From contig OX597826.1 of NCBI GenBank assembly GCA_951406725.2, positions 19,840,001 through 19,904,000 on the forward strand: DNA of 64,000 nucleotides. Reading direction: 5' to 3'. This DNA comes from Octopus vulgaris. Taxonomy: Eukaryota. The position numbers were made by a program, and so were the translations under genes. This document shows, in pieces, positions 13,686 to 41,315 of the stretch. Numbering within the stretch: position 1 is the stretch's first letter; each line of letters opens with the position of its first letter. The notes below the pieces were generated by a model. It saw nothing but the letters and a program-made list of their open reading frames with translations, was not told where the DNA came from and did not search any database.

Positions 13686-13979
13686 GTAAGTGGAGATTCA
13701 TTATTCAATTCTACACACATACACAAATCTATGCAAATATGCACGCGCGCGTGTGTGTGTTATTAGATAATAAACCTTATGGTATACATCTGGTAGCTTA
13801 CTGGTAAAGCACGTTCACTTTCACAGTGTTCGTAGTGTATTTGAATAAAAAGAGAGACCGAAGATGGAGGGTACGAGAATGTTTATGAATACACATACAT
13901 ATATGTGTGCTTCTCTTTCTCTTTTTTATTTAGAATAAATTTTGATCAGCAACCTACTTGGTAGCATATAGGTGAAGGA

Positions 13980-14990
13980 AAGCATCTTAATTTCTTCGTC
14001 ATCCTTTAAATTTTGAGAAGGTCTTGCAGATTTTCATAGTCCCTGATATCGTGATCATTTGTAGAGTATTTGCTTTCTCACCGAAAACCCAAGTTCGGCC
14101 ATACACTGTTCCAGGCGAGTTGGTCTGTATTCTGCTCCTCCAGTAACAATAGATATGAAGCTGAAAGTGTATGTTGAGTACTGGATTTCCAAATATCCGC
14201 TTTTTCTTATATTTTTCGAGCCACATTGGTGTCCAGAGGGCAGCTGATTTCCACAACTGATCGCATCTTTTCCTTGTGACAATATCTGACAGGTTGTTTT
14301 AATTTTGGTGGCTGTTTTAATCTTTAAGTTCCACTAATATTCTTTTGACCCATCGGTTTCAATATAGTCAACTTCGTCTGTAGATGTTTTCTTTTCTGTT
14401 ATTCTGTTCAAGATCGTTCTGGCCACTGCATCATGCTTCCATATCTGGAAGACATTCTCTCACAGTTGGCAATGATGCGGTTGATGTCTTCAGTTTTGGT
14501 GTTGCACAGCCTACATTTCTTGTCTGTCAACGTTTTCTGCCTCTTATGCTGTAGGTACTGCATGGAGGTAGCCACCAAAGTGGCATGTCATAAATTTGTC
14601 GGTATCCCATGTCAAACACTTGGCATGATCAGTCCCTTGAAACGGTTCCTGTTTTTCGTGCCAATTACCCATGTACTATCTTTTCTGTGAACTGCTCATC
14701 TTTTTTATTTTGTTCTTCTGATAAATAGATTTTACCAATGCTCCTTGGAGAGAGATCTATATCAGCCCTTATTTCATATCTCTTCTCAAGTTCATTAGTT
14801 ATCCTAATTATGTTATTGGTTTCATGGTTGCAAATTTGGGCAAGATAGTTACTGGCCACTTTCCTCTGCTGTAGATGTTTCAGTGTCAATATGTGCTTCA
14901 TATGACATCAATACAGATTTGAGACTACGACCACCATCCTTGGAAGTATAGCCTATCTGCATCTATATTGATGTTGAGCTTTCCTGTAAC
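13980..14990 (-). mobile_element. Decayed R4/Dong-like retrotransposon fragment
   Basis: DADRLYFQGW remnant, CRLCNTKTEDINRIIANC knuckle remnant and C-terminal ISGTMKICKTF. Confidence 0.7.
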
Positions 14991-17490
14991 ACTGCGTGCG
15001 TATGTATGTATGTATGTATGTATGTATGTATGTATGTATGTATGTATGTATGTACGTATGTATGTATGTATGTTCGTACGTATGTTTGCATGCAAGCATG
15101 TGTGTTTGTGTGTGCATGTAAGTATTGTTTTATTAAGGTTATTTCTACACATATTTTATAGAAGTTTTAGTCAGCAATCATTGCTTAAATAGCCACCACA
15201 CATAGCGGTGGGAAGTTATTGGCCATACTAATTTACTTATTAAACGCATTCGTGGAAGCTGTGACGTAAATATTAATGATTTGTAGGTACATGGTGATAT
15301 TTCGTTAAGTCAATAGCACGTTCTACTGCGTTAGCAACGTATTCGAGGATGCTTAATGAATCAGATGGCTGCTGATGAAGGGGCAAAACCCCGCCAAATA
15401 TGGCTTACACGCCCATTACCCATTTTTCATCAGCGATCCCATTGCTTGTTTATATCTGACGTTTCATATGCAAAAATCAGTGCTGGCTATAATTTCTAAA
15501 ATAACCTTAATAAAATATTGTAAAAAACACTGCTTACGCAGTAGAACGTGGTTTTGACTTATAAAAACATTTAATATACTTTATAGTATATTATGATTGC
15601 ATAACGAAATACCACGCACATACAAATCCTTAGTATGTATGTATGTATGTATCATATATGTTATTTTTTGATGCAGAAATCTGCTAGAAATGCTTTAAGC
15701 GGCTGGTGAGGTGACAATTGCTAAATTCACTTTAATTATAGTAAAATTCGAAAATGGTGATTGTCAGCGTCAACACAAGATTGTCAGCGTCAATAAGTTT
15801 GGTGGCCGTGAGGACTGGAAAAGACTGGTGTTTCGTTCTGTAACACTTCGCCAAATTGTGTCCGAGAGAAGTGAAAAAAAGAATTAATGGATTATTTAGT
15901 AAGAATGTGGATGAGGAGTAATCACAAAAGATAGCATCAGTTTGTGTGAGATGGCTTGTGCACAAGATGAAAGGCGGAAGGTCAGATAAGGAAAGCGAGC
16001 CCCTACATGGTATTCAAATTATTTAGGAGAATTAGCAAAATCTTTCTCAAACAACATCTACTGTCTTGAAGATATTGCATTTGACAATGTGACACTATGG
16101 TCATTACTGGAATGCCCTTGGTCACAAGGGTGACCTGGAGTTAAATAACAGCAACAGCAATAGAAAACTTAAATAAGAGTTTAACGTGCTTCAATTATTG
16201 GCTTTTACCGAATTGATTTTTACTGAGTTATAGCTGCAGCTGTCTCCTTGGAATATGACGCAAATAATTTAACTACTGCTTTAATAGCTTGACTGCTTGC
16301 AATTTTAAATGCTTAGTGAGAATTGATTATGAATTTCCATAGTAACGTAATCGTCTGTAGGACAGGTTTTTAAGTTATACATCAATTCACGTATTTAAAT
16401 AAAAACATCTTAATTTGTATTAATCTAATTGCTACTATTAAGGGTTTAGTTAAAGTTTCAGAATCATATATACATCACATACATATAAAAAAAACTATAA
16501 ATAAAACAAACAAAAAAGATGTTACAGTAGGGTTTAATATTTAATTTTGAAATGCGACGATTTATTTAAAGTTTTGCCTAGTGAGGCTTTTCAGAGAGTG
16601 TTTAAAAATAGATATTTGTCATTTATATACATGTTAGGGGCTTTGAAGTTTGGAAAGGAATTATCAATAAGAAATTAATGAAAAAAGACTGGATGGTCAA
16701 TTCTGGAATGCCTTTGATCAGAGGGTTGAGCTGGAGTTAAATAGTTGCACAACTTCAGATCAGCCAAGTAAGAGCATGACATACTTCAGTTATTGACTTT
16801 TATTGAAGTAAACAAGCAGCTGCCTGCCCGAAGATGTTAACAACTGCTTGCAATTGTAAGTTCTCAGCGAGGATCGATGATGAGCTTCTATGGTAACCTA
16901 TTACTTTATATTATTATGTATAATTTGTAGTTTATACATATCATAGGCGTAATTAGTGATGATTCGGTTGGACGTCCCACCGCCAGCAACACCTGTGATA
17001 TACTGAAATATTTTCTGTGAAAATTAAACTCGTTCATATTTGTGGATGATTATAAATGACATACACACACGCACAAAGAAACACGTGTTTAGTCATATAG
17101 TTTTTACAGAGTCATCAACATAACTACTGTCAGTACATTCCGCCCACTAATAAAAATACCAGCCTTTAGGATTTATGATCAGTACTTTCGTATGTACATG
17201 TATACGCGTGCGCTTGTGTGAGTTTGTATATGTGAGATTGTGTGTGTATGTGTGAGTGTGTATGTGCGTGCTTGTGTTTGTATATGTATGTGTCTGTGTC
17301 ATTCATAGGGTCCTAGGTGGGAGCTCCGTTTTCATTTTCTATACATTTCTGATGGACAATCATTGTAAAAAAACATAAGTCATTATACAAATGTACGTCT
17401 CTCTTCCCATTATCAATATCATATCTGCGATCATCACCATCAATAACACTCTGTTCCTTTAGCATTATTTATGTATTTATTTATATAGTA

Positions 17491-17885
17491 CTAGCAGTAT
17501 CGCCCGGCGTTGCTCGGGTTTGTAAGGGAAATAATTATATAAGCATTTTTAGAGATGTAAAGTATAATAGCCATCTCAATATGGCTAACCACAAAGGGGG
17601 AGGGGTGTTACTGTAGCTTTTTACGTTCTGAGATTTAATAATAAATTTTAGAGAGTTACTTCCCTTATATATGTCAAAAATGGATTAAAAATGGGAAAAA
17701 TTGATGGTAATTTTTTTTTTAAATCGTAGACTCATCGTAGACGCGCGCTAATACCCAGACGGTCTCGATATGAATCACGACTATAAGATACCCGCTTTTG
17801 GTTAAACTGCACCGCAAAATGTGGGAGTAGTTAGGAATCTAAATCGTAGGAGACAGACACACAACCTCACTTTTATATATAAAGA
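17491..17885 (-). mobile_element. Non-autonomous Helitron
   Basis: Minus strand reads A|TCTTTATATATAAAAG...CCCGAGCAACGCCGGG-CGATACTG-CTAG|T: 5' TC, 3' hairpin plus CTAG, inserted in AT. Confidence 0.8.
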
Positions 17886-17948
17886 TTTCCTCTATTTACA
17901 TAATATTGAGGTCTCTTTCTTTCTTTTGTTATCTTACTGTTTTTAACA

Positions 17949-17986
<38 letters not shown>

Positions 17987-17994
17987 GTATAAAT

Positions 17995-18318
17995 AGTTAC
18001 AGAGATGTACTTGCATAGCAAGTGACTTGATCTGAGATCGTGTGCTGGAACGAAAACAGTTGCAGCGTTGAAGGTGTTTATAAGCCATTTAAGAAACACA
18101 CAAAAACCGTTAGATTCACTTCAACATTTAAATTTAATTTGTCAAAATATTTTCGTCGCTTTGAGACCGCGACCTGTTAGCACGATATTTTTGTCAGTGA
18201 ACAGGTCGCGGTCTCAAAGCGACGAAAATATTTTGGCAAATGAAATTTAAATGTTGAAGTGAATGTAACGGTTTTTGTGTGTTTCTTAAATGGCTTACAA
18301 ACACCTTCCACGCTGCAA
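17995..18318. mobile_element. Fold-back element (119-bp arms plus about 65-nt one-sided tail), probable PLE terminus
   Basis: Arms 18060-18178 and 18200-18318; same family in the opposite orientation at 41316-41637. Confidence 0.7.
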
Positions 18319-18650
18319 TATATATATACACACATATATATATATATGTATGTATGCATGTATGTGTGTGTGTGTGCGTGTCTGTGCTTGTGATTGTCCT
18401 CCACCACTGCTTGACAACGAATGTTGGTTTGTTTACATCCCTGTCACCTAGTGGAAACAGATAGAATAAGTACAATGCTTACAAAAATAAAACTGGAGTT
18501 GATTCATTAAACTACAATTCTTCAAGGCATTGCCCCAGCATGGCCACAGACCAATGGCTGGAAAAAGCAGAAGAATAAAAGAATACATTCTCTGCTTTGG
18601 TCTTATGTTCAAGGCATAAGAAAGCTTGAGTTTACATGAGAAGGCCTAAC

Positions 18651-19345
18651 AGACCTGGTAGAAACAGCAGCCAAATCTCCCTCAAATCACACCTTACTGT
18701 CTTATGTATGTATATATATATGAGCCAATGAGGGGGACCTCTACATGGTAGCTAGACCTGGTAGAAATAGCAGCCAAATTTCCCCCAAATCACACCTTAC
18801 TGTCTTATCTATGTATATATGTATGTATGAGCCTATGAGGGAGACCCCTACATGGCAGCTAGACCTGGTAGAAATAGCAGCCAAATTTCCCCCAAATCAC
18901 ACCTTACTGTCTTATCTATGTATATATGTATGTATGAGCCTATGAGGGAGACCCCTACATGGCAGCTAGACCTGGTAGAAATAGCAGCCAAATTTCCCCC
19001 AAATCACACCTTACTGTCTTATCTATGTATATATGTATGTATGAGCCTATGAGGGAGACCCCTACATGGCAGCTAGACCTGGTAGAAATAGCAGCCAAAT
19101 TTCCCCCAAATCACACCTTACTGTCTTATCTATGTATATATGTATGTATGAGCCTATGAGGGAGACCCCTACATGGCAGCTAGACCTGGTAGAAATAGCA
19201 GCCAAATTTCCCCCAAATCACACCTTACTGTCTTATCTATGTATATATGTATGTATGAGCCTATGAGGGAGACCCCTACATGGCAGCTAGACATGGTAGA
19301 AATAGCAGCCAAATCTCCCTCAAATCACACCTTACTGTCTTATCT
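18651..19345. repeat. 107-bp tandem repeat, about 6.5 units
   Basis: Near-identical ORFs recur at 18745, 18852, 18959, 19066 and 19173; internal units appear identical. Confidence 0.97.
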
Positions 19346-19438
19346 TTCTGCTACTTATATTCGTCGTAAAAAACTTTCCTGTCACACACTCACGCACACG
19401 CACACACACACACACACACACACACGCGCGCACCCTCA

Positions 19439-19471
<33 letters not shown>

Positions 19472-21260
19472 TCACACACACGCACGTTAGCTTACAATTT
19501 TATTTATATATTTGCGTGTCTGTGTTGAAAGAGGAAGTGGGAGGCAGAGTGAAAGAATCACTCACTACAGTAAGTAAATTACTTTCATTTTATTCGCTGC
19601 CCACTGTGTGTGTGCGTTTGCGTGTGGTGTAAACCAGACTAAGAAAAGCATTTGACACACACACCAGAATGTGAGTTTTCTGTAAATTTTGCTTAATTGG
19701 AGTTTAAATTTTAAAAACTGGACCTGGCATGACGCGATGCATTGTACTCTTAAAATTGCTAGGTAAATTGTAATTGAAGAAATGCTATATTGTAGATTTG
19801 TATAACTCCCAAAGGGAGGCAGATAAAATCTGCCTTTTATAATAAGAGATTAGCATTCTTACATTCAATTTCTCCTATCATCATTATTCCCTTATCCTCA
19901 TCATCATTAATGCTGCTATAAGCACATTCAAACATCCCAATAGCTATAAATTTGTTCATTTATATTCTGTTTTTGATTTAATTTTATTTTCATCATCAGT
20001 ATTATTACCATTTTTTTAGCCTTTCGCATCATTATTTTTTCCCTTTATTTTTTCATTATGCGGATCAGAATTAATATATTTAATCTACACAAAATTGTAA
20101 ATTTAAATTCACGGACACGTTTGATTAATCCCGACGTGTTCTACCTGATGAGTACCATGGTTCCTCCAGCTGCTTATGAATACGTCAACTCTGGATTTAG
20201 GAGTATATAAATAATGCTATTCCTACATGTATTTCATTATTTACAAGTAGTTTGATGTCAAACTATCCTATTTCGTAAAGCACGGTTCGTTCCGGGTGAG
20301 ATTTTTATAGACGGTATCAAATTCTTTATTAATGACCTGTAGGGACACCGTATTTCGTTATGCTTCGGGAATGTATTTAATATGTAAAATTGATATATCC
20401 AATTATGTTACATCGCTATATTTAGTTGCTGTTTAAGCCATCAGTTCGTGGATGGTTGTTGAGTGCTGATAAAGGAGCGAAAATTGAAATATGGCATATA
20501 CACCCATTACTCACTTTTCATCTTCGATCTCATTGTTGTTTACACTGGACGTAACAAATTCAATGCTGGATATAATTTCTATAGAAAATTTGTAGAGATA
20601 AGCCTGGCAGGTTCTTTATATTTCTCACAATTACCATTTTCACTATAACCATTTAAATTATAAAATTAACTTTTAGAACAATATATCCTCGCCACAACTG
20701 ACAGACAACTATAAAATCAGAAATAACTTTCTCAACTAAAATCAAGACTGGAAAAAAATTGAATTGTCCTGACTTCCCTTTTCCAAATGCTTAATAAAAG
20801 ACAACTTTACCCGTGTTTGTATCGTGTATCGATAGCTCGATATATAAATATTTACTTCTGAATGCAGACACAGCGAAATAAAACCCAAGAAAGAAATTTC
20901 CCTGCTGCTATCAATGACCATCAAAACTCATTCAGAGAAAGTTTGTGAAAATATCAATCCGTGTTGATCTTTATTTTACGATTAACAGGTCTAAAACAAA
21001 ATTTCCTAAGAGGAGATGTATATTATGGAGGGCGAGAGTAAAGTAATGTGCGAGAAATTATGAGCATGGTATTGCTTTACTACCCTATCATCTGGGAGCA
21101 AACACAGCAGCAGCTCTGAAATATAAAATATTAAATCATAATATACAGAAGGAGTTCTCGTCTTTCATGGCATCGATTACCAAAGAAGAAATAGTCCAAG
21201 AAATGTTTGTGTATCAGTCGTATTAATTGTAGAGAAAATAAAGGACGGAACCTGAATAAC

Positions 21261-21490
21261 TATTTCTTTATTACCCACAAGGGGCTAAACACAGAGGGGA
21301 CAAACAAGGACAGACATAGATATTAAGTCGATTACATCGACTCCAGTGCGTAACTGGTACTTAATTTATCGACCCCGAAAGGATGAAAGGCAAAGTCGAC
21401 CTCGGTGGAATTTGAACTCACAACGTAACGCAGACGAAATACCGCTAAGCATTTCGCCCGGCGTGCTAACGTGTCTGCCAGCTCGCTGCC
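21261..21490 (-). mobile_element. Full-length tRNA-derived SINE (family A) with LINE-like alternative tail
   Basis: Head GGCAGCGAGCTGGCAGA...GAGTTCAAATTCC; direct repeat GGAACCTGAATAAC at 21247-21260 and 21506-21519. Confidence 0.85.
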
Positions 21491-21559
21491 TTTTATGGAA
21501 ATGTAGGAACCTGAATAACGCTTACTTGTTCTGTGCTATGCTTTCGATAATGTTATTTG

Positions 21560-22480
21560 TGCTTGCTTTTGACAATCTGTGAAAGATTTATTGGATATCA
21601 AGTAACTTCTGAATTTGACGCTCGAATGTTTTTGCTGCACTAAATGTCTTTGGTGGTAGAATGTCGCATTATACTGTATAAAAAACAAACGTTGATTTTC
21701 ATACCAATCTGCGTGTTGTTGTCCCATTCGCAGTCTGTGTCCATGGCTACTCTCACAAGCTGAACCTGTTACATGTTGACTGCGTATAAAAATGTAAAAG
21801 CCGCAAGAGAATATTTTGTCATATCGCAGCGACTCTACATTTCCAATGAACGATCCACTGTGCATCCGTAATTCAAGTAGTTATAGGAAGAAATAAATGA
21901 CTGTTAATAAAGCTAAAATTGACCGTCTGATACATGTTAGATCTATCACCATGCATGATGTTAAGGTGAACAATTTACGCTTCAATTTATTTTATTTTCT
22001 CTACCATATTTCAGTGAGGATACCAAATCACTGGAGGCAGAAATTTAGAGCAAGTCACTTTTATGAGTATCGTATGCAAACTTTTGTATTCTTGTACTCT
22101 TTAAATAATCTTCCGAAGAAGATGCTACAATCTTCAGTGGAGATGATGTCAATTGACAGAAATTAGGCAAAAGATATAGGTAGCATACAATCTAGCAACA
22201 ATCGGACTTATTACAATCAACTAGTTTGCAAGAAGCCAAAATGGCGAAATTAGCGTCATACCATTTAGAGGATTTGCTGGTCACTGAGATTAACAGAAGC
22301 CGACAGCTGAGTAATGAAGATTACTTCACCGTGATTTCGTCACTTGTATTTTGGATAGCATTTGCTCAAAGCTACAGTACCACTTTTTGACACAAAACTC
22401 TTATATCAGGAAGAACATTTCCCATCTTAATTCCAGAAGTCAGCAGCCTTTCAACATTGAGAGTCTGAAGATCATGACAA
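21560..22480 (+). pseudogene. Highly decayed hAT (ZMYM1-like) transposase
   Basis: ERFIGY and VHGYSHKLNLLHVD (the HCxxHxLNL motif), with many stops. Confidence 0.6.
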
Positions 22481-22636
22481 ATGTCAACTGAACTTGGACG
22501 GCCTGAAGACGGAATGCTATAGCACATCTAGTTTCATCTAGCAAAAGATAGGTATTTTGAACATACTGGCGTATGTGACTTTGAGGAGACTTTTGCTCTT
22601 TCTATATGCATGAGCGACCGCATAATATATACATTA

Positions 22637-22671
<35 letters not shown>

Positions 22672-23971
22672 CTCTCTAGATACGTTCCTAAAAATGCGGT
22701 GCGAAATGAAACATTCACCGAATGTGGTCATTATAGCACCAGAACTATAGATAAGAGCACGTATGGTTATAAGAATATTTCTATCAGTGATATGAACAGG
22801 AATGAAGATATCATATGACAAGCCAATGCAGAAACGACAAACCAATATAGAAATGATAAACCAATCCACGAACTTTTGATACACCTTCAAAAACGTAGTA
22901 ACTTTTGATAATCGTATACTGTGTTATGTGATCGGAAGTTATGCTGAAATAATAAAAGCGTCTTTATTAAGCTCCAATGTTATAAAATTATTATTCATGT
23001 TAAGTTCCTCAGTTTTACTACAAATACACAGGTCTACTCAACAGGAGGAACATATTATCTGGGATGAAGATTAAGGCTGGTCTCTTTTCCTTATATTGGT
23101 TTTCTTGAACCTTCCCTCACGAAGCAGCAGGATATCATGTCCAGAACACTTGCTTGCGTTGTTGCTGGCTCCCAGTCTTATTCCTTTCCCTTAAACTGTT
23201 CTATCTCGGCGATACTGTTACTGAGGGATTCAGTTGTCAGACTTCTTTTTGTTCTTTCTGTTATTAATAGCTCTACAGTTAGCTCTTGAGGTTTATTTTG
23301 AATTTATTGCTATGATAACTCCTGCAGCTTCTCAATAGATAAATTCTTACCAAGAGTCTGTACTAACTTCTTCAAGACTTGTGCATTAACATTTTGTATT
23401 TTCCTTTCATAGGCCAACTCAAAGATATAATTAATGACTGCTGAAACTATTTTTTCGTAAAGTTCCTGGTTAGCATTGCATTCTTATGGCCATAGTTTCT
23501 TCCAGACTTTTCTTCACTGAGCTCTCCATTGCTTTGTCAAGGCCATCAGTTTCTTCAACAAGATGCTTGAGAGTTCGACGACAATTTTAGGTCTTGATAA
23601 TATTGGACTGGCCTGAAACATCATCCTTAAGTATCACACCATCTTTCCCATCGTAGAGATAAAAATGCGAGATAGCATCTTTTTCAAAATTCGCCTGCTT
23701 ATCTGGAACAGTTTCCATACTCGTTGATAGTCTTAAGAACCTGGAGAAATTCTTTGACTTCTGGGTGCCTGCATTTGAAGCTTCGCTAGGTATGCGGATG
23801 CCGTGTCATTTATATCATCGATTGAAAACCTGAAACCAAATTCTGTTAGCTGTGATTACTCCCGAATTATCATCTTTTTGCCTTGCATGTGTCTAGTGAA
23901 GATCCTTGCCTTTTCTTTTACGATAAGTTGACTTAATATCATGTTGCGGTGCATTTCGTCGTCCACTTATA

Positions 23972-24182
23972 TTGGTTTCAAATTTTGGCACAAGGCCAGC
24001 AATTTCAGGACAGAGAGTAAGTCGATTATATCGACTCCAATGTTCAATTGGTTCTTATCGACGCCGAGAGGATGAAAAGTAAAGTTGACCCCGGCAGCAT
24101 TTGAACTCAGACCGTAATGTCGGAAGAAATGCTGCTAAGCCATTTTCCCGGTGGGTAACAATTCTGTCAGCTCACCACCTTA
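23972..24182 (-). mobile_element. tRNA-derived SINE (family A)
   Basis: Reverse complement of the family A head and body, with the TTGCTGGCCTTGTGCCAAAATTTGAAACC tail. Confidence 0.8.
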
Positions 24183-24987
24183 TCTTCACTTATATTGCAA
24201 ATATATTTTGTTCTCACTTCACATTGAAGCAACTTTAACTATAGAAAGAAATCGAAAAGATGAAGTAGCAAGAGAAAGGATGAAATAATATAAGCAGACT
24301 GACGCTAGAACAAAAGAAGAACATATGAAAGCATCAGAAAAACTAATATGCATGAGCACGAACATGCAGATTACCCATAATATTGAAGAGAAAATCGATA
24401 GATGCGCAGAGGGAACACAGACGATAAAGAGTTATGTGATTAGGTGATAACACTGAGAGAGAGGAATAGAGAGAGGGATAGAGAGAGAGAGGGTAGAGGG
24501 GGAGTAGAAGTGAGTGAGAAGCAGAAGTGTTATTATATCTGTCTGAACGCGCATCAGCGAGCAGAATATCTGGAACAAGTTCAAGGAAAGGACTAGGAAT
24601 GTATGAAAACAGGATTGAAGAGATTAGCGAGAGAAATGTTCAAAGAATTTGGAGCTTCTTTCATACAGCATCAGTAGGAACAAGTTTTATTTTTCAATAA
24701 ATTCAATCCATTTTCCAGCCTATTATCTATGACATCTTAAACAACATAACTAAATAAAAGTAATCATGACAAAAGAAGCAAAATTGTAAAACGTTAATTC
24801 TTGGTCTCTCGTTAATTCTTGGGTCCCGTTAGTTATCGTAAAAATGTAATGAGTTTCACTTTCGTAATAACTGATTATAATGTTCCAGTATATAATTTAT
24901 TACAAGTCATTGCATAAAATTAATGCAATTCATGATCATATTGACACCAAGAAAAGGAAGGATTATAGCGAACCAATATCAAACGAG

Positions 24988-25250
<263 letters not shown>

Positions 25251-25557
25251 AGCAATCAAGCAAGCAATCGATCAAATCACTCGGAAAAAGATTGTAGTAC
25301 AAAATATGAAAGCATCATGTCATCTTACTTACTTTCTTGACGTTGCTCCATGTGAATAGTATGTTGTCAGGTCATTGCAATATTACTGAGAGGGAAACAA
25401 TTTATTAATTGTGAATATTTTTAAAATGATACTGAGTGTCCTTTTGCTCCGAAATCTGAAGAATTATGCAACTGAAGAATCAACAATATGCCGAATAGAA
25501 GGAATTATGTTAGCATTTCTTTGTTTCCTATCTAGAAATGTGACAGGGGTTTCATTC

Positions 25558-25611
<54 letters not shown>

Positions 25612-25629
25612 GCTATCAATGGGAATAGT

Positions 25630-27065
25630 AGCATACCACACTGGTTAGCTCTGGGAGAGCAAAACTGATCCACAAATGCAGAACCACCCACATGCCAAAA
25701 AACTACCGGCCAATTGTATACCAGAACTTAATGTATAAAGGGTATATAGCATGTTTAAACCTCTTCCTCCTAGACAATTGCAAAAGTAGTAACATCATCA
25801 CAGCAGAACAAGCAGCTGGGAAGAAGGGAGTCTGGGGATGTGCCGAGCAATTGTTAATAAAAAAAACTGTAATGTGAGAGGTGCGGAAGCATAGAAGGAA
25901 ACTAATTTCGATGTGACTGGATTACAAGAAGGTCTTTGACTCTGCCTCCAACTCATGGATGCTAGAAACCCCAGTAGCTTGCTAAATTTCCAGTAGTCAA
26001 AGACGTAGCAGACCTGACTTCATCGCGGCCACCATTTTGAAATTAGACACAAAGCATAGCTGTATTATCACTGATAGAATACAGTATCGCGCAGAGGAAT
26101 ATTCCAAGGGGACAGCCTCTCTGAGATGATGTTTGTGTTTTCTGTGAACCCCGTCATTCATGTTAAGGAACTCTGAAGGGTATCTCACTGGTTCACTAGG
26201 GAACAAAAATACCAAAATTACACACTATTTCTTCATGGATGACTTGAAACTATATACTAAGAATATGCATGAGATGAAAAAGAGTCTTGATCTGGTTACA
26301 AAATTCTCAAAGGATGTAGGGTTGGAGTATATAGTTGTGAAAAGAGGGAAAACTGTAAACCGGACCAGCAGCATCTCTATCAATGACTTGACTCTATATC
26401 TGATGAGGAATACTACAGGTACCTAGGAGTCAATGAAAACATATCTTAATATGGCACCTGTAACAAAACACCAGTCACTAAAGAATATTACTGCCGAGTA
26501 AAGGAAATATGGATCTCGGAACTCTGCATTCAATAAAACTGTGGCCCGCTATGTGTTTGCTCATACAAACATTTGGGCTGCTTGATTGGACGTTTGATGA
26601 GATCCGAGCCACTGATGTGAAAACCCGAAAGATACTAACCAGCTTGGACGCTGTACTATGTACTATGTCACTCATAATAAAGAGGTGTCCTGGGGGAATG
26701 TCCCAGTGAAAACCACATTAAAATGTAAACATAATAGACTTGACATAGTAGTTTGAGATAGAGAAGAGAAATTGTGTACAGCTGGGAAAATCAGCAACCC
26801 AGAGGATGTTAACATAAAGCTAAGGATTAGAGAAAAAGAAAATACCTAATCTGAACTATTGAGAAATCTACAGTTACTCTATCCATTTTACAAATTCCGG
26901 TTTATACTTATATTGGGGCACTGGGATATGTAGCACACTGTCTAAATACCAATCTTGAGAAATTAGGCTTCTCAAAACCAGAAAGTAAACTAATTCGAAG
27001 ATTACTGATCCAGACCATCACTGGAATTTTAAGAACCTGTAAAAATTTCCAGACTTTAATCATTT
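25630..27065 (+). mobile_element. Decayed R4/Dong-like retrotransposon (RT to RLE)
   Basis: NYRPI, EQAAGKKGVWGCAEQLLI, FQGDSL, HYFFMDDLKLY, terminal IGALG. Confidence 0.85.
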
Positions 27066-27144
27066 AAGTATATATGTCTAGATATGCAACTATATGCATG
27101 AGAATACGTACATAAAAACATACAAATATGTTCACATACATACA

Positions 27145-27176
<32 letters not shown>

Positions 27177-27299
27177 CATATATACATACACATACACATA
27201 CATACACATACATCCATACATACATACATACAAACATATGTATACATACATACATACATACATACATACATACATACATACATACATACATACATACAT

Positions 27300-28860
27300 A
27301 CGAAAAAACAAAAGACGAAGACGGGTGATGTAGAAAAACAGATGTATTAGTATAACGCTCGGGAATAGAAAAAGTCTTTTACGTTTCGATCCTACGCTCT
27401 TCCACAGAAAGGAACGCAGAGAGAAACAAGGAGAGAAAAAAATGTGTGTAGTGGCTACCGATCTATCATGGTGACTGCCGGACAGAAGGGTCGCACAGGA
27501 GAGCGAAGAAATAGGGGAGATAACAAAGTAATAGTGATCCCAAAACGAAGGGGTGCATGTGTGTTACAGAGTACGTATGTGCGTGTGAAAGAGGGCTGGT
27601 GGTCTTGACGTGTGCGTGTGTGTATGTATAGGTGTGAAAATGTGGGGATGGGCATTGGTCAGTGCTGGGGTGTGGGTGGTGGTGTGTTGTGATGTGACGT
27701 GTTGTGATGTGATGTATTGTGTGGTATGGTGTAGTGTGGTGTGGTGTGATGTTGTTGGGAGGTGGGGAGGCGAGAATGGCGAAAGCACGGGTGGGCTGTG
27801 GGTTAGGCTGAGTGTTGGGGTAGGGTTGGGGTATGTGGGTAGACAGAGGGTGGGGGTAGAGGTTGGGTATGTGGGAGAGGGTGTAAGGGATGGTATGGGG
27901 TGGAATGGGAAGGATAGGGAAGGTGGGTATGAGAGAAGAGAGAAAGAGAGTAAAGGAGAAAGAGAGTAAGAGAGAAGAGAGAAAGAGAGTAAGGGAGAAG
28001 TGAGAAAGAGAGTAGGGTGAAAAGGAGTAGTAGTGAAGAGAAGTAGGAGGCGGAACAAGAGAGGAGAGGTGGGTGGGAGGAAGTAGGAGGGAAATGGAGA
28101 GAGGCAAGGGGAGGAGGTTAAATGAAGAAGGGAGGAGAGTTGAGCCCATGTGGCACAAAGGATCGAAGAGAGAAGATTATTCCATGTTCACGGCGCAAAC
28201 GGGAGTCCAGAGGGAAACTGTGCAAGGATAATCCGAACACGGACAGGTGTTGCAAAGAGTGACCGGTAGAGCGGAAATACCGTGAGCCCGGGGTGTCATT
28301 GCCGAGGCGGATGTCTTGGAGGTGTTCCGCGAACAGGTCAGCCAAGCGGCGTCCCGTTTGTCCGATGTACAGAGAATGGCAGAGAAAGCAGGAGATGCAA
28401 TAGATGATATTGGTTGAAGTGCAGGTGAAGGAGTCGGTGATGGGTGCCGGATAGGAGGGTGGTGTTGGAGATGTAAGGGCAAGTGCGGCAGCTTGGGCGG
28501 GAGCAGGGGAACGAGCCAGGTTGGGGGTTGGGTTGGGGAAGAAGCTGTGAACCAAGAGGTCTTGTAGGTTGTGGGCTCGTTTGAAGGAGAGGAGGGGTCG
28601 GTTAGGGAAGACGTGTGAAGTGGACGGGTCGGACTGGAGGTGCCGGAAAGCTCGGAGAATGGTGCATTGAAGAGGTAGGGTGGTGGGGTGGTAGGTGAGG
28701 GGAAAAGGGAGGCGGGAGACTGCAGGGCGGGTTCATGGGGAGAGAGTAGATGCACGGTTCATGGAACGTGCTCTGGCAAGGACTAGAAGGCCTAAAGCGT
28801 GGCTGGTAACACTAAGTGCTATGGACAGATTATAGCTAAACTCTTGGTTCGATAGTGATA
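27300..28860 (-). mobile_element. Penelope-like element (Neptune-type) 3' fragment: GIY-YIG endonuclease, 3' UTR and hammerhead-like motif
   Basis: FTCTSTNIIYCISCFLCHSLYIGQTGRRLADLFAEHL...RREHGIIFSLRSFVPHGLN (ORF 28118-28555). Confidence 0.9.
27376..27411 (-). ncRNA. Minimal type I hammerhead-like motif, variant core
   Basis: CTTT-CTGTGGA-A-GAGC GTAG GATC-GAAA-CG-TA-AAAG. Confidence 0.55.
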
Positions 28861-28894
28861 CGAGTGTGGGGTCTAATGTGGGTCTTCTATTAGC

Positions 28895-28930
<36 letters not shown>

Positions 28931-29000
28931 TAAAATGAAATAACATAGCCAAGGCTGCGAGGAGTTTTCAGGTCATTTATAAGGAAAAATATATAGATAT

Positions 29001-29050
29001 AGACTCACAGCTGTTTCTATGATATTATGAATATCCCTTCATCAGAGACG
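29001..29050 (-). ncRNA. Degenerate PLE-type hammerhead
   Basis: CTGATGA-AG-GGATATT CAT AATATCA-TA-GAAA-CAGCTG-TG; palindromic stem III, but cleavage triplet and stem I are mutated. Confidence 0.55.
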
Positions 29051-29642
29051 ATGGGAGATGGTTAAACACAGGTAGATATTTAAGTTCAAAATAAGGAATT
29101 ATTATGGAAAAGGAGGAGATAAGGAATACAGAGAGAAATACAAGAATGAAAGTATCAAGCTATTCGAGGAAAGTGGTGTATAGAAGTGGTAAAAAGGTTT
29201 CCTGTACATAGTATGTAAGTTCCAGTAGTAGTTCATGGTTAGTCATTTCAAAGTATGGAGCTGTGGATTCTTTGTTGCTCATTTGAAGGGGTTTTGTGGT
29301 GTGAATGAACATTTGAGAATATATTGGTAGTATTTGTGGATAGATGGTGGGGAGATGTGTATGATACCTTTAAATGTTACCACAAATCTAAATGCAACCT
29401 AAATAACCACACAGCATATATCCACAACACCCCTTAGGTAATCTACAACAACCCTACTTAACTTTCCTTTATCTCCATTCTAATTTTTAATCTTTAGTTT
29501 TTTAGCTCCCCCATCTTACTTTAAGGATCTCAGTCATTTAATACTACATATATGGACATGCAGGCGGATACATGTGTGTGTGTAAATGTGTGTACATGTA
29601 TATTTATGTATGTATGAATATGTAAGCGGATATATGTATATG

Positions 29643-29717
<75 letters not shown>

Positions 29718-29756
29718 CAATTATTTGTGAAGGAAATCTAATTCTCGGCGACAACT

Positions 29757-29820
29757 ATGATTGTCATACGCTGACGAGAGGTTTAATACCTCGAAACTCG
29801 AGTCCGTGTGTATCATAAGT
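29757..29820 (+). ncRNA. Type I hammerhead ribozyme, intact core
   Basis: CATACG-CTGACGA-GAGGT TTAAT ACCTC-GAAA-CTCGAG-TC^CGTGTG; predicted cleavage after 29804. Confidence 0.88.
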
Positions 29821-30018
29821 TGAAGACGGGAAGGATGACTTCCCTTTGCAAATACTGACAGGACACAGAAAGTGTGTCTATGGCCAGCTGGAGGAGTGTG
29901 TCCTCCTGGGGCTAAAAACTACAGTAGCATCCACCCTTAGGGGTTAGCCATATTGAAATGGCAAAAATACATCACGTTGTGTTACCGCTACTGTATATAA
30001 CTCACATTGATATTTATC

Positions 30019-30053
<35 letters not shown>

Positions 30054-30182
30054 TTTATAGAAGGAGCTTCTACAGAAACAGTTCTAGTCCTGTAGAAGCT
30101 CCTTCTATAAAATAAATTAATTTACTCTGCTATGTATTGAGTACCTAATTTACTGTGGTTAACCCCGACTCAACCCGGGACC

Positions 30183-30219
<37 letters not shown>

Positions 30220-30731
30220 ATACTAAGTAATTAAGGGTTTAGCAACGATTTGCCTCACCACACACCGAATTTAGAAATAGCAGTCAAATAGTTATGGCTA
30301 TTCTTTCTACTTAAAAGAGAGATCTCAGTAAAACCACAGCACTTAAAAGGCAAACAACTATTTGACTGCTATTTCTAAATTCGGTGTGTGGTGAGGCAAA
30401 TCGTTGCTAAACCCTTAATTACTTAGTATTACTTAAACCTTCCTCGAATGGGGCTTTTACATGCTGAAATCTACTTGGTGAAATTAATGATTACTCCAAA
30501 TTAATTGATTTCACCCTATATTATTATTGATATATATGTCTATGTGTGTGTGGCTGTGTGTATGTGTATATGTATGCGCACGCATATGCGTATATGAATA
30601 CATTTACGGATGCGCGTGAGCTTACATGTATATATATATATATATATATGTAGGTCCCGGGTTGAGTCGGGGTTAACCACAGTAAATAAGGTACTCAATA
30701 CATCGCAGAGTAAATTAATTTATTATATAGG

Positions 30732-30782
30732 AGCTTCTACAGGACTAGAACTGTTTCATTCAAAAGAAATCATCAGGAAGCT
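30732..30782 (-). ncRNA. Type I hammerhead ribozyme, intact core with weak stem II
   Basis: AGCTTC-CTGATGA-T TTC TTTT GAA T-GAAA-CAG TTCTAGTC CTG-TA^GAAGCT. Confidence 0.78.
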
Positions 30783-30989
30783 AGTAGACAAGAGTTGTTT
30801 TGGCATTTATACATTTAGGCAGGTTTAAAAGGGTGGTGGTGGGGGGCTTTTTGGGGGGTAGGCATGGCGCAAAACTGTCATTATTAGGGGAGTGGTCAAA
30901 GGAATCGGTGGTAAAGTAGATAAAAGAGTAAATAAAAGAATAAAAGAATAAATAGAAAAATAGAGTTTTAGGTAAGTAAGGAGACTCTC

Positions 30990-31000
30990 ACTTGTACATC

Positions 31001-31059
<59 letters not shown>

Positions 31060-32157
31060 CCACATATTCACATACATCTATATATATACATACATACCCA
31101 CATATACATACATATATATACACATACATACATATACATATATATATACATACATATACATATACATACACATACCCATGTACACACACACAAATACACA
31201 TATACATACATATATATACACACATGTATAAACACTCGCACATATATATACATACACACATATACACATGCATATACATGCACACACATACACACACATT
31301 TTTATTCCCTTATTTTAATTTTATTATTACTACTTTTGTTTATATCTTAATTTTTATCTTGATCGCGGTCAGCCGGTCTCAAGGGATGATCTAAAGAGTC
31401 CATTTATCTATCTACTCACTGATACGAACGCAAACACTCACTCACACCCACACACTCACACGTACATTCATACCCATACACACACGCACGTGTACTATTC
31501 ATACACACATACATCTACATACATTCACGTATATTCACATACGTACACGTACCTACTGATTCATATCTACACGCATACGCATACATACCTCAATACACCC
31601 ACAGAAGACTAGTCCATACATATACACTAATAAATATATATACACATATACACATACACATACATACACATACATACATATACATACACATATACATATA
31701 TATATACATATATATACATATACATATACATACACATATACATTCATACATATATACACATACACACATATATATATATATATATATGCGTACACATACA
31801 AACACACACACACGCGCATCTATATATACACATAAGTACATACATGCATAAATGTATACATATGTCTATACATATGCATACACATCCACACACACACGCG
31901 CCTCCTTATGTTCATAAATACATACATGCATACAGGCATATACATATATACATACATGCACACTCAAATAATAATAATAAATATATATACGTGCAGTTAC
32001 CCATTATACAGACGGATACATACATCTAAACCTACCCATATATACCTATTTACACATATGTATATATACATACATACATACACACATAACTCTACATACC
32101 TACATATACATAAACACACAAGCGTACACATATGTATACATATATACATATACACAT

Positions 32158-32210
<53 letters not shown>

Positions 32211-32760
32211 TATACATACATACATATATACACATACATACACACACATATATATACATTTACACGCACATTTTTACACATATATATACACATACACATA
32301 TACATATATATATATACATACATATACACACAAGCACATACATGCATAAATGTATACATATGTTTATACAAATGCATACACATATACACACTCACGCGCC
32401 TCCTTATATACATAAATACATACATGCATACAAACGCATACTCATGTAATAAATAATGAATAATAAATAATAGATATATATACACATACAGTTACCCTTT
32501 ATACAGACGGAAACATTCATATACACATACACGTATATACCTAATTACACATATGTATATATACATACATACATGCACATACACATAACTCTACATACTT
32601 ACATATACATATACTTACATATATATATATATATATATAAATATGTATGTACATGTATATATATATATATGTGTGTGCGTGTGTGTTTGTGTGTGTATGT
32701 ATGTATGTATGCATATGTACACATGTATACGTACATGTGCGCGAGTATACGTATGTCATT
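30990..32760. repeat. Degenerate (CA/TA)n low-complexity array with internal duplications
   Basis: Directly visible; CACGCGCCTCCTTAT and CAGTTACCC..ATACAGACGG recur. Confidence 0.9.
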
Positions 32761-33581
32761 ATACTTTCCTTCCTCCTCTCTGATTCCTGTCTTCACACTA
32801 ACAATCACATACGTCTATTTATAAAAATTTGACACCCTTGTATTCTTCCCTCCAATTTTACTACTAAAACTACTACTCATTTTGGTATCACCCCACCCAT
32901 ACCTTTTCTCTACCCATCCCTTAATGCAGCCCTATCATATCACCCCTACTCACATATCTCACACTTATTCAGTCCTTACCTTCTCATCTCTTCCTATCCC
33001 TCTCCCATTCCTCTCCCATCCTCCCTTTACATTATCTTGACCACCAACTCCTTTTCTCGCTTCTTTCTCCCTTTCTTCACTTTTTTCACACTTTACACTT
33101 CTTTCTCTTTCTTCTTTTTTCTCTTTTTTCTCTCTTTCTTCCTCTCATATTCTCTTCTTGTTCTCATTTCCACGAACACACACACACACACACATATCTG
33201 CACAGACATACTCTTTTACTCTTTTACTTGTTTCAGTCATTTGACTGTGGCCATGCTGGAGCACTGCCTTTAGTCGAGCAAATCGACCCCAGGACTTAAT
33301 CTTTGTAAGCTTAGTACTTATTTTATCGGTCTCTTTTGCCGAACAGCTAAGTTACTGGGACATAAACAAACCACATAATTTACATTTATTAATTGTGCGT
33401 ATTAATACATACCCTACAGTCTGAGTTTGCATGCTAGGTTCCTCAGCTTTCGCAGCAAATTGCATTGAAAACTCAATTGCGATAAGTTTTGTTTCTGTGT
33501 ACACATTCATACGCAACTAATTGATAAATTGCACAAGGCATATCATTAAATTTAATGTTAAGATACCATATATAAAGAGTG

Positions 33582-33653
<72 letters not shown>

Positions 33654-33811
33654 TATACTACTACTAAACACGTTTGCTTAGCTAATAGATTAATAAATAA
33701 TCATAAACTGAAACTTTAACATCATACCGTGATAAATTATTTCTGCAATCAGTTCATGTTAATTTTATTATCATTTCATCAGTTATATGTAAGTAATATT
33801 TACTTACATTA

Positions 33812-34006
33812 AGGCGGCGAGTTGACAGAATCGTTAGCACGCTAGGCAAAATTTCGTCCGTCTTTCTGCTCTGAGCTCAAATTCCGCCGAAGGCGACTTT
33901 GCCTTTCATCCGTTCGGGGTCGATAAAATAAGTACCTGCTTTGCACTGGAGTCGATGTAATCGACTTACTTCCGAAATTGCTGGCCTTATGCCAAAATTT
34001 GAAATC
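33812..34006 (+). mobile_element. tRNA-derived SINE (family A)
   Basis: AGGCGGCGAGTTGACAGAATCGTTAGCACG head; body and tail as in other copies. Confidence 0.85.
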
Positions 34007-34009
34007 TAT

Positions 34010-35497
34010 AGGAAGGAGTTCCAACCATGTTTCGTGGTTCGCTAAACTCAACAACCCCTTTATAGGACCCAGTGGCTAAGGACATCAACAGGAGGAACCA
34101 CGTCTGGTTTCGGCCCCTAGTCGTCTACCGTTTTCCGAGGTGGCGCCCCCCCCCACTTTTGGAGGTGTCTTCAGCTCTGGCATTGAGGACTTTTTTTTTG
34201 TTCTTTGGTTGCGTCGTCTTCCATACAGTGTCAACAAATGTCAGCGGGCGAATGACCACCCTGCCAAATTTCCCTTTAAATAATAGCCGGTAAGTTCTAG
34301 CAGCCAGCGCCAGCTGTCACGTGACGCAATCTAAGCTTCAACAGCCCGCGTCGATCGACTGTCATGTGACACAGTCTACTGACCAATGGAGAGGAAGAGT
34401 ACGTAGTTTTAGCCCACGCCCTCTCTAGACCTACCTTTTTCCTTTCAATGAAGTCTCAAACCCCCAATGCTAGGTGGTAATACTCGACAGTCCACCCCTG
34501 TTCCCCGCACTCTTCGATTAATTTCTCATACCTTCTCTCCTTCCGTTGCTTCGCATTAGCGATGTTCTCGTCCCACAGCTCTATCAGTTCTAGCAAAATT
34601 CAAATTTCTCAGTCTGTATTCCATAGGAATGTTGTTAGGTTGTTGTTATGAGTAGACATTAATAATCTTTCCAAATTCGCGGCCAGTACCTCCCAGTACC
34701 TCTTCCATCTTTCGTCTGTCTCGTATACTTTTTTGAAGGCCTGGTCTTATGTATTTTCCCCTCCTTCCGCATTTTTCCACTTTTAGGTACTCACCCCTAT
34801 TATATCCCTCGATCTTCTCCTTGAGTGTTGAGCATACGACACCGAGGACTTGGTTGTGACTCCATGTGTCTCTGTTTAGTGCTAGCCTGCAGTTTGACAG
34901 AACATGCCTTACCGTCACTTTATCTCTGCATCTACATTCATCAGTCGATTGTAGGTTCTACCGGACTAAATTGGTCGGTGAAGGCAATATATCGAAGGTG
35001 GACTTGACCAGGAAGGATGTTCTTTCTTGTTCCCAAGTCCAAAGTTCCTCCCATCTCAAGCACTGTCCCTCTTGACTACATTACATCAAATGTACATTTC
35101 GCCTTTCTTTTTCCTCCTTCCTCACTTCGTGTATCTCTGCCTCTTTCAATTCTTTTACACTATTCATGCACAATGGTTTGAAATTTTGCAGCCCTAGACA
35201 AGCTCTTGTTTTTTGCATCGCTCCGACTATATCGTCATGTCTTAGCTTTCCGATTGCCCTGTTTACTGCTTCTTCCGCTTTCTGTTCGTATCTCCGGAGG
35301 GCTTTCTCGGATGTTCTGATCTTTCGAATACCTTAGCATCATTACTTTCCTGCAAGATAGTCTTCGACGATTGATGCAATCGGTAGTTGCAGCACGGGTT
35401 TTCCATATAGTGCAGTTGTATTCAGCGGTTTTGGAAAACTAAGCCATTTTCTGATAAATACACTGCATCTTTGTTCTATCCTTTCTACTCTACTCGA
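34010..35497 (-). mobile_element. HERO-like RLE non-LTR retrotransposon, 5'-truncated
   Basis: TVRHVLSNCRLALNRDTWSHNQVL; homologous to 43680-45140 including the 3' UTR. Confidence 0.8.
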
Positions 35498-36524
35498 TTA
35501 TTTATAACTACATATTGTTTGGATTATCGTAAGTTGTACGTTTGCCACATATAATTACCTTCAATTTTTACATACTGAAATATCACAACCAACGAAAAGA
35601 CTCACTAAGGATTGACATTTTTTTTAAATGCCAGGAGCGAAATGCAAGCGTATAAGACCCTTAAGAAGGCACATTTGTGCAGACAAAAATAATGTATCTT
35701 TAATTTCACAAATTCATAAGTATGACAATTTATGTTAAATTATTGTTTTGGTCTAAAGGTTCAAATTGCTTCTTTATAAAGATGTTTTTTGGAACTTCAC
35801 CAATGGACAGTTCCAAATTTGAATGTGAACGAAGTTGTACCTTCAGATGAAGAGGTTCCCCACCCTTCATCAACGTCATCGTTGAACCTATTATAAATAA
35901 CTAAATCCTCTTCAAATTATACCATAACATCTAAACACACACACACACATACAGACACACACATTGGATAAATGTCGCTTTAGATTCACGATGCCCGAAG
36001 AGAAAAGTACAGTATTGTCACTACATACGAGATATATGCAATTCGAGAATACAAAGAGGTTGCAGTACTGAGTGAAACAACTTCATTTCACATTCACTTC
36101 ACCAGAATACCTTCGAATGGGTCTATTCCATCTATCTATCTATCTTCGTTTACCCTGGTCTCCAGTTTGAGAATACTTTCTCCTACCAGTTTCGGAAAAA
36201 CTTTAGAGTCATGGGTACTAATCTTTCATCGTAAGAGTTAAGAAATATCTGTCTTCTTTCCTCTATCTGATTAGCTAACGCCCTATATCTATCTGTCTAA
36301 ACATTTATCTATGTAACTCTATCGGCAGAGTATTAAAGCTTAAACCAACAAGGTAATTATTGACCGTTATATCATTTTGATATCAAATCATTTTCTTATA
36401 TCATTCTTTCACATTACTGTAAACCGCCTGTAAGTGTACTGCCACAATGAAAGATAAATTATCCAATTTGTGATTCGCTTTTAAAATGTCATGTATAAAC
36501 TGAAAAAAAATATGTATATTTCAG

Positions 36525-36670
36525 CAAATCCTTGAGTTGCTTATCAGGGGGACCGGTAGCAAATGAATATGCAGGTTGTGCATCTGCTAAAGCAGTACGG
36601 AAAGTGATGGAAGAGAAGAATTATCAAATAACCAATCCAAAAGGGACCTGGATATTGAACAAAGAATGCC
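36525..36670 (+). CDS. Internal exon (phase 2 to 1): KSLSCLSGGPVANEYAGCASAKAVRKVMEEKNYQITNPKGTWILNKEC
   Basis: tatatttcAG acceptor, GTAAGA donor, 146 nt with 48 open codons; ends Cys + 1 nt like the exons at 4359 and 57301. Confidence 0.75.
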
Positions 36671-40726: not shown

Positions 40727-41315
40727 GTGAGTATTTCGGGGAATGTGTTATGATACAAATTAACGATCTGCTTTAAGTAATTCATTAACTACTGTATCAT
40801 CGCCCACTCTTCTGCTGCGTTTAACATTTCTATAGCTTCGTCAGAAGAGAAGAATTCATACCCATTAAATAAGAAGCTTCTCTCAGGCTGGTTAAATTTA
40901 TGTAGATAATATGCAGCTTTAATATTTCTAAAATAGGTTTCTAGCAAAAATGTAATGGAGTTCTTTTAAGGGAAAACCAGTTTGTCAGGTTTTGAGAGCA
41001 AGATCATTCACAGAATGGTCGATAGAACAAGTAGATTTATAGCAGCACGATTGACAAGTGTATTGAGTGGGTGACATTTTGTTAAAACCGGATTAACCAG
41101 TTAAAAGAAGCAACAAAGAAAGAGAAATCGAAAACGGTAAGTGAAAAAATAATAGGAGAAAATATTTCTTAAGCAGATAGAAAAAAAAGAAAAACAGACT
41201 TTAGCAGCAATACGAAATGAGTGAGAAAGAAAACAAGGCTTCTGTTCCTCAGACATTTTCTTTTACTACAGAGTACAAATAAAACCATCGCATTGAAGGA
41301 AGATTTTCTAAATAC

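What the first reader, a model, noticed from the sequence alone, without database searches (positions are those of the whole stretch)
29757..29820. Intact, probably dimer-type hammerhead ribozyme in sense orientation inside the host gene's intron
Seen: complete CUGACGA/GAAA/GUC core, 6-bp stem I with distal extension (ATGA/TCAT), 5-bp stem II and a self-complementary stem III (ACUCGAGU). Known: PLE minimal hammerheads with palindromic stem III cleave mainly as dimers. Inference: it lies on the same strand as the predicted Cys-rich exons, so it could cut the pre-mRNA after 29804.
Basis: partly seen in the sequence, partly recalled or inferred. Interest (0 to 1): 0.7.

Follow-up and report, generated by a model that had tools for sequence, protein, structure and literature searches.

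The report
Octopus retrozyme copy inside an intron
The self-cutting RNA motif is really there, on the transcribed strand of an octopus gene's intron, but it belongs to a lone, incomplete copy of an abundant 353-base repeat that is likely a known kind of jumping RNA (a retrozyme), so it is likely a passenger that would cut the host message only weakly.

Summary
Observation confirmed. A type I hammerhead lies at 29752-29822 (+): intact core, cut site after C29804, 6-bp stem I with distal extension, palindromic helix III. The strict motif appeared in 1 of 200 shuffled windows. It is in sense orientation in a 22.8-kb intron of a predicted 303-aa Cys-rich Octopus vulgaris gene.

It is not a PLE minimal hammerhead. 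It is a canonical one, inside a solo 300-nt copy (29722-30021) of a high-copy repeat with a 353-nt unit, set in (TA)n. The unit closes on itself in contigs of two runs, and a circularly permuted sister copy lies at 53001-53365. This fits a metazoan non-LTR retrozyme, likely moved by Penelope-type enzymes.

Folding predicts that helix III needs a partner copy; no close partner lies in this intron. Against the family, the copy has a stem I wobble and a longer loop II. Fast cutting of the pre-mRNA is therefore the less likely outcome. It is not excluded, because similar coral and mussel monomers do cleave. Cleavage, circular RNA and transcription were not shown.

Verdict: new member of a known kind; interest low to moderate.

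The parts
29722..30021 (+). Solo, sub-unit-length copy (300 nt here, 299 in the family, of a 353-nt unit) of a retrozyme-like repeat; lacks a 54-nt segment of the unit
   Evidence: joint 30021->29722 with 54 letters between, in 383-nt contigs of X5 and X6; 6 substitutions + 1 indel against the X6 contig
29752..29822 (+). Extended type I hammerhead ribozyme motif
29771..29777 (+). Core CUGACGA (C3-A9)
29765..29810 (+). Stem I, 29765-70/29805-10; U.G at 29767/29808 where the family has C-G
   Evidence: table 3 (29767 T>C in all contigs covering it in 4 of 4 runs)
29778..29792 (+). Stem II and loop II; likely 4 bp plus a loop that is 6 nt in the family and 7 nt in this copy
   Evidence: tables 3, 4, 7
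29796..29803 (+). Helix III: 2 bp plus palindromic tetraloop; 8-bp self-duplex in a dimer
   Evidence: pair probability about 0 in the monomer; self-duplex -10.7 kcal/mol
29804..29805 (+). Predicted scissile bond after C17 of GUC
   Evidence: hammerhead consensus (established knowledge)
29640..29721 (.). Upstream (TA)n target; its last bases (29714-29720) may be a 7-nt inverted micro-arm
   Evidence: (rough chance 0.005 near the 3' end, 0.08 anywhere in the unit; suggestive only)
30022..30050 (.). Downstream (TA)n target
13687..36525 (+). Host intron, about 22.8 kb, of a predicted Cys-rich 303-aa gene (P0001); cut site is 6,722 nt before the next exon
52984..53365 (+). Diverged sister copy: whole unit, circularly permuted, 9-nt terminal redundancy, 19-nt inverted 5' arm; hammerhead with U3-A8 core at 53160-53192

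Best explanation
The hammerhead is part of a lone, incomplete copy of a high-copy 353-nt repeat that sits in a (TA)n tract of the intron; the repeat is likely a non-LTR retrozyme pasted in by a Penelope-type enzyme, and this copy would likely cut the host pre-mRNA only slowly because its helix III is predicted to need a partner copy. Shown: the motif, the repeat boundaries, the unit length, the circular permutation between copies, the (TA)n flanks, the sense orientation. Inferred from known retrozymes: multimeric transcripts are cut to 353-nt monomers by paired hammerheads and ligated to circles, and a PLE reverse transcriptase copies circle or multimer into TA repeats. This copy reads intact across the scissile bond (83 nt upstream, 217 nt downstream), so its template was not the cleaved linear monomer; a circle, an uncut multimer or a trimmed tandem array would all fit. 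With one ribozyme and 85% of a unit, it cannot release a unit-length RNA by itself.
For: Unit and permutation: closed 383-nt contigs with the same joint in 2 of the 4 runs (X5, X6; one study); independently, the window's own 53001-53365 copy holds the same blocks in rotated order with 9-nt redundancy. High copy: summed contig depth in X15 is 4.4e5 over the ribozyme bin, against 34-52 for single long contigs (not a copy number). 20 of 24 listed runs hold the stretch or part of it, under 8 organism labels and 12 studies. Size and ribozyme architecture match mussel (350-390 nt) and axolotl (330/350 nt) retrozymes (PMC7229834). Paired changes in the sister copy keep stem I and the distal helix (A-U to G-C in each). 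The U3-A8 core of that copy is a described covariant (PMC4209133). PLE marks: (TA)n target, inverted 5' arm, ends about 40 nt apart. Dimer: the active monomer fold costs +5.0 kcal/mol in six contexts; the homodimer MFE has the 8-bp intermolecular helix III and is 6.5 kcal/mol better than two monomers. No other copy above 90% identity lies in the window; the only family piece in this intron is a 57-nt antisense fragment without ribozyme. Solo and intronic retrozyme copies are common in Xenopus, and 8 of 9 tested dimers did not cleave (bioRxiv 10.64898/2026.07.22.740005).
Against: Coral and mussel monomers cleave at about 0.8 and 0.1 per min, and the paper calls a 2-bp helix III with tetraloop typical of invertebrates. 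Nearest-neighbour folding ignores tertiary contacts, so the predicted dimer need may be overstated. A closed contig may come from an RNA circle, a tandem array or collapsed permuted copies; the RNA status of X5 and X6 is only a guess. No tandem array of this exact family was seen, since no genome was held. No Rfam hit. No homology to an autonomous PLE pLTR was shown.
Confidence: 0.7

Rival explanations
1. Same retrozyme origin, but this copy is active as a monomer and cuts a sizeable share of nascent pre-mRNA before the next exon is made: an accidental attenuator of the host gene.
For: The conserved core positions are intact; stems I and II form with probability about 0.5-0.66 in every context tested. 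With mussel or coral monomer rates and 1-4 kb/min elongation over 6,722 nt, 16-49% or 74-99% would be cut (elongation rates partly assumed). Fast intronic ribozymes block splicing (Fong 2009 as cited in PMC10919898).
Against: Helix III probability about 0 in the monomer. The copy has an extra base and a substitution in loop II and a wobble in stem I. With axolotl monomer rates only 0.2-2.7% would be cut. Published rates are for 37 C. [quoted passage not shown]
Confidence: 0.18
2. The motif is a PLE minimal hammerhead in a pLTR remnant of an autonomous Penelope-like element.
For: A GIY-YIG-like ORF remnant (28118-28732, -; recognised by eye, no Pfam hit) and other PLE-type pieces lie within 2 kb. 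Xenopus retrozymes are homologous to pLTRs.
Against: The architecture is canonical, not minimal. The unit closes on itself at 353 nt with no room for an ORF. The GIY-YIG-like remnant is on the other strand and is followed by its own, different minimal-type motif near 27388.
Confidence: 0.06
3. A domesticated intronic ribozyme that regulates the Cys-rich gene, like RECK, C10orf118 or CPEB3.
For: Sense orientation and intact core; such intronic ribozymes exist.
Against: About 2% from the family contig, so a young insertion. The element's non-ribozyme parts are kept equally well. 3 of its 7 differences fall in the ribozyme's periphery. Seven hammerhead-like motifs lie in this one window, 4 sense and 3 antisense, as expected of scattered insertions.
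Confidence: 0.04

Closest known systems
Metazoan non-LTR retrozymes (Cervera and de la Pena 2020, PMC7229834; Li, Clavereau and Pollet 2026, bioRxiv 10.64898/2026.07.22.740005)
   Same: Non-coding unit of about 350 nt, GC under 50%, one canonical type I hammerhead per unit, high copy number, solo copies in introns; helix III as in HHR_Amex2 (2 bp plus tetraloop).
   Different: Octopus host, not named in the parts read; this copy is solo and 54 nt short of a unit; tandem array, circRNA and cleavage not shown for this family.
Minimal hammerheads of metazoan PLE pLTRs (PMC4209133)
   Same: Type I topology, palindrome across helix III, predicted dimer, (TA)n neighbourhood.
   Different: Has a real loop 3, a 6-bp helix I with a defined internal loop and long distal helix, a short helix II, and no bulged base before helix II; not attached to an ORF.
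Conserved intronic ribozymes of amniotes (RECK, C10orf118 hammerheads; CPEB3 HDV-like) (PMC6155905, PMC3088659, PMC10919898; passages)
   Same: Self-cleaving motif in sense orientation in an intron, several kb before the next exon.
   Different: Those are conserved across species; this is a young member of a high-copy repeat with no sign of locus-specific conservation.

Membership tests
Type I hammerhead ribozyme | Conserved core CUGANGA / GAAA / UH around three helices, open at helix I | tested here: met
Type I hammerhead ribozyme | Match to an Rfam hammerhead model | tested here: not met
   no hammerhead family listed. An Rfam match is a detection aid, not the definition of the class.
Type I hammerhead ribozyme | Site-specific self-cleavage | not testable with these tools
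   needs an in vitro assay
Canonical type I hammerhead (PMC4209133) | Helix I 6 bp, helix II 4 bp, helix III 1-2 bp with a 2-4-nt palindromic loop | tested here: met
   helix II is 5 bp as drawn here, 4 bp plus 6-nt loop in the sister copy
Canonical type I hammerhead (PMC4209133) | Loop 1 - loop 2 tertiary contacts | tested here: inconclusive
   A 3x1 loop in helix I is kept in both window copies; contacts not modelled; this copy's loop II is 1 nt longer than the family's
PLE minimal hammerhead | No helix III/loop 3; helix I 4-5 bp with poorly defined loop; long helix II with 5' bulge | tested here: not met
PLE minimal hammerhead | Located in the pLTR of an RT/GIY-YIG element | tested here: not met
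   unit closes at 353 nt; no co-oriented ORF of 100 aa or more adjoins it. A genome-wide link could not be tested.
Non-LTR retrozyme | Non-coding repeat unit of 150-450 nt with one type I hammerhead | tested here: met
   353-nt unit; 356-nt sister unit
Non-LTR retrozyme | Multi-copy in the genome | tested here: met
Non-LTR retrozyme | Head-to-tail tandem copies (at least two ribozymes) | tested here: inconclusive
   Not at this locus, which is a solo derivative. At family level the closed contigs and the permuted copy show head-to-tail continuity, but no array was seen.
Non-LTR retrozyme | Expressed as linear and circular monomer RNA | not testable with these tools
   only contigs were available and their RNA status is a guess
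Non-LTR retrozyme | Mobilised by PLE machinery | tested here: inconclusive
   (TA)n target, inverted arm and ends about 40 nt apart in a handful of copies; indirect

The most novel reading that the evidence does not exclude
The palindromic helix III works as a switch. Solo intronic copies like this one stay silent until abundant family RNA pairs with them in trans, forms a double hammerhead and cuts the nascent pre-mRNA. Retrozyme expression would then tune splicing of the many octopus genes that carry sense-oriented copies.
Probability: 0.07. Interest if true: 0.75.

Novelty: new member of a known kind. Interest (0 to 1): 0.27.

Why it matters
As a single locus it matters little: it is one of very many hammerhead-bearing repeats in this genome. 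Three searches listed no paper devoted to an octopus retrozyme family; a squid genome paper reports 235 hammerhead-1 matches (PMC6962438, passage). The family is thus a modest extension of a known class to cephalopods. The locus is a handy test of an open question: why genes tolerate intact sense-strand ribozymes in their introns. Dimer dependence and decay of the peripheral loops are the two candidate answers. If trans-pairing switched such copies on, a mobile RNA would control host splicing at genome scale.

Tried and rejected
Chance motif: rejected.
Rfam: no hammerhead hit; the miRNA-type hits are hairpin and TA-repeat noise.
Loop II / stem I pseudoknot (family loop CAAU with AUUG at 29760-63): considered, then dropped, because a family variant (X16 loose end) and the sister copy have loops that cannot make it.
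Cis partner in the same transcript: no close copy. The 53.1-kb sister is 23 kb downstream in another intron and its loop III is not complementary.
Expression: no RNA holder listed; contigs cannot show strand, level or ends, so say nothing on transcription or cleavage.
Genome-wide copy count, tandem arrays, orientation bias in introns and a link to a full PLE: not possible, no genome held.
Whether this exact insertion is present in other individuals: not resolved; the (TA)n flanks break the contigs.
Host protein: no Pfam family; only weak further relatives (2 of 3 hits near E 1e-3, not followed up). My splice-site scan found only 2 of the 8 exons.
Earlier findings by place (near, relatives) and by sequence gave nothing.
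Supplements not seen: PMC7229834, file 1 of PMC4209133 and the bioRxiv preprint's. They may list cephalopod sequences, which bears on the novelty claim.
Lunse et al. 2017 on dimeric minimal hammerheads is recalled only, not read.

Full report
Observation. All stated parts are in the sequence: CUGACGA 29771-77, stem II 29778-82/29788-92, GAAA 29793-96, palindrome ACUCGAGU 29796-29803, C17 at 29804, and stem I 29765-70/29805-10 with one U.G pair. Past a 3x1 internal loop come 6 + 4 further pairs out to 29752/29822. A descriptor scan found this site and one more in the window. In 200 shuffled windows the strict form occurred 0.005 times per window and the palindromic form never. Weaker tests did not single it out: the loose pattern (13 vs 7.2 expected), the folding z-score (-2.0) and Rfam (no hammerhead hit).

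Host gene. A candidate exon retrieved P0001, named as an Octopus vulgaris hypothetical protein of 303 aa, Cys-rich, with no Pfam family. Eight exons, covering residues 88-300, map to the + strand with AG/GT borders. The ribozyme lies in the intron 13687-36525, in sense orientation, 16,118 nt after the donor and 6,722 nt before the acceptor. The gene model is a prediction; I did not show the splice with reads.

What carries the ribozyme. Contigs of seven runs were laid (X5 twice; 7 of the 24 listed). The stretch 29722-30021 behaves as a high-copy repeat. In X15 the summed depth is 4.4e5 over the ribozyme bin, against 34-52 for single long contigs; the tool warns that this is no copy number. In 2 of the 4 runs (X5, X6; two organism labels, one study, RNA status guessed) a 383-nt contig runs from 30021 back to 29722 with 54 other letters between. 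The unit is therefore 353 nt, and the window holds one copy lacking 54 nt. It differs from the X6 contig by 6 substitutions and 1 indel, about 2%, and has (TA)n on both sides. The window gives independent support: 53001-53365 is a sister copy, 79% alike over the best 205 columns and 68% over the two shorter blocks. It holds the same blocks in rotated order, with a 9-nt terminal redundancy (356-nt unit) and a 19-nt inverted arm at its 5' end. Its hammerhead keeps stem I and the distal helix through A-U to G-C changes and has a U3-A8 core, a covariant described in PMC4209133. The structure is thus kept at family level.

Classification. PMC4209133 (parts 1-2 of 4 read) defines canonical metazoan hammerheads as helix I 6 bp, helix II 4 bp and helix III 1-2 bp with a palindromic loop. 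It defines PLE minimal ones as lacking helix III/loop 3, with a short helix I and a long helix II. This motif is canonical. Minimal-type motifs occur separately in the window, near 27388 (-) and 43555 (+). PMC7229834 (parts 2-4 of 6 read) places canonical type I hammerheads in 150-450-nt non-LTR retrozymes: 350-390 nt in mussel, 330/350 nt in axolotl, expressed as circles. The 2026 preprint (parts 1-3 of 5 read) links them to PLE pLTRs, finds solo copies common and 42-44% intronic in Xenopus (depleted after normalising for length), and saw cleavage in only 1 of 9 dimers. PMC8557442 (passages) lists (TA)n targets, inverted 5' copies and a 30-40-nt tail as PLE marks. Here, three family pieces end near unit positions equivalent to about 29975-30000, while this copy's 3' end and the sister's inverted arm end near 30021-30026. 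That is roughly the tail length, but it rests on five ends.

How it likely works. Inferred: in its own cycle the ribozyme cuts multimeric transcripts into unit-length RNAs that are ligated to circles and copied back by a PLE enzyme. This copy spans the scissile bond, so its template was not the cut linear monomer. With one ribozyme and 85% of a unit it is a dead end for that cycle. Predicted: stems I and II form at about 0.5-0.66 in six contexts, helix III at about 0, and the active monomer fold costs 5 kcal/mol. Two copies form an 8-bp intermolecular helix III, 6.5 kcal/mol better than two monomers. No partner lies in this intron. The copy also differs from the family in the ribozyme's periphery: U.G for C-G in stem I, and one substitution plus one extra base in loop II. 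The sister copy and one contig variant fit a 4-bp stem II with a 6-nt loop, whereas this copy's loop would be 7 nt; that may weaken the loop-loop contact (inference).

Against this reading. Coral and mussel monomers cleave at 0.8 and 0.1 per min, and folding programs do not see tertiary contacts. Scaling published monomer rates to 6,722 nt at 1-4 kb/min gives 0.2-2.7% cut for axolotl-like rates, 16-49% for mussel-like and 74-99% for coral-like (the 4 kb/min figure is mammalian, from PMC10919898, the lower ones are my assumption). The effect on the host therefore depends on one unmeasured rate. I put slow or negligible cutting as more likely, and meaningful cutting at about one in five. Domestication is unlikely for a young copy of a high-copy repeat.

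Earlier notes of this scan (unchecked AI notes) describe many 359-494-nt hammerhead repeats with PLE-type insertion marks in this genome, and about a hundred thousand hammerhead motifs in (TA)n. They agree with my reading, which I had stated before opening them, but they are not independent proof. Their claim of an snRNA-type promoter just upstream of the ribozyme was not tested here. If true, the missing 54 nt may include part of it.

Verdict. Real motif, correct orientation, wrong family label. It is a solo retrozyme-like insertion: a new member of a known kind, interest 0.27. Three literature searches listed no paper devoted to an octopus retrozyme family; unread supplements may contain one.

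Noticed in passing
window 30776-30738 (-) and 30041-30190 (+): Second hammerhead family: an antisense copy with intact core, a 4-bp helix III with an 8-nt loop and a mismatch at the base of stem II; and a sense copy cut off inside the ribozyme with a fold-back 5' arm. Both end at the same base before (TA)n and are 95% alike.
   Followed up: partly
window 29045-29000 (-): Third hammerhead family with palindromic helix III; this copy has G at the cleavage position where the contigs have A (place 29006), so it is likely dead.
   Followed up: partly
window 52984-53365 (+): Whole, circularly permuted sister unit with a U3-A8 core and an inverted 5' arm, also sense, in the intron 40728-57301.
   Followed up: yes
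window 28118-28732 (-) with 27300-27600 (-); 43524-43663 (+): GIY-YIG-like ORF remnant (by eye; no Pfam hit) followed by a pLTR-like repeat with a minimal-type hammerhead whose core reads CUGUGGA; a second copy has CUGUUGA and a changed GAAA. U at core position 6 in both copies may be a family trait.
   Followed up: partly
window 30216-30433: Near-perfect 77-bp inverted repeat starting in (TA)n, likely the two-armed end of another high-copy element.
   Followed up: partly
window 4360-62593 (+): Host protein P0001: 303 aa, Cys-rich, apparent signal peptide, looks internally repeated, no Pfam family and only two weak relatives among 1.84 billion representatives.
   Followed up: partly
window 54690-54830 (-) and 55961-56101 (+): Near-identical inverted pair about 1.1 kb apart.
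   Followed up: no
window 47010-47943 (-), 3621-4064 (+), 6943-7308 (-): LINE reverse transcriptase, zf-RVT and hAT dimerisation fragments.
   Followed up: no
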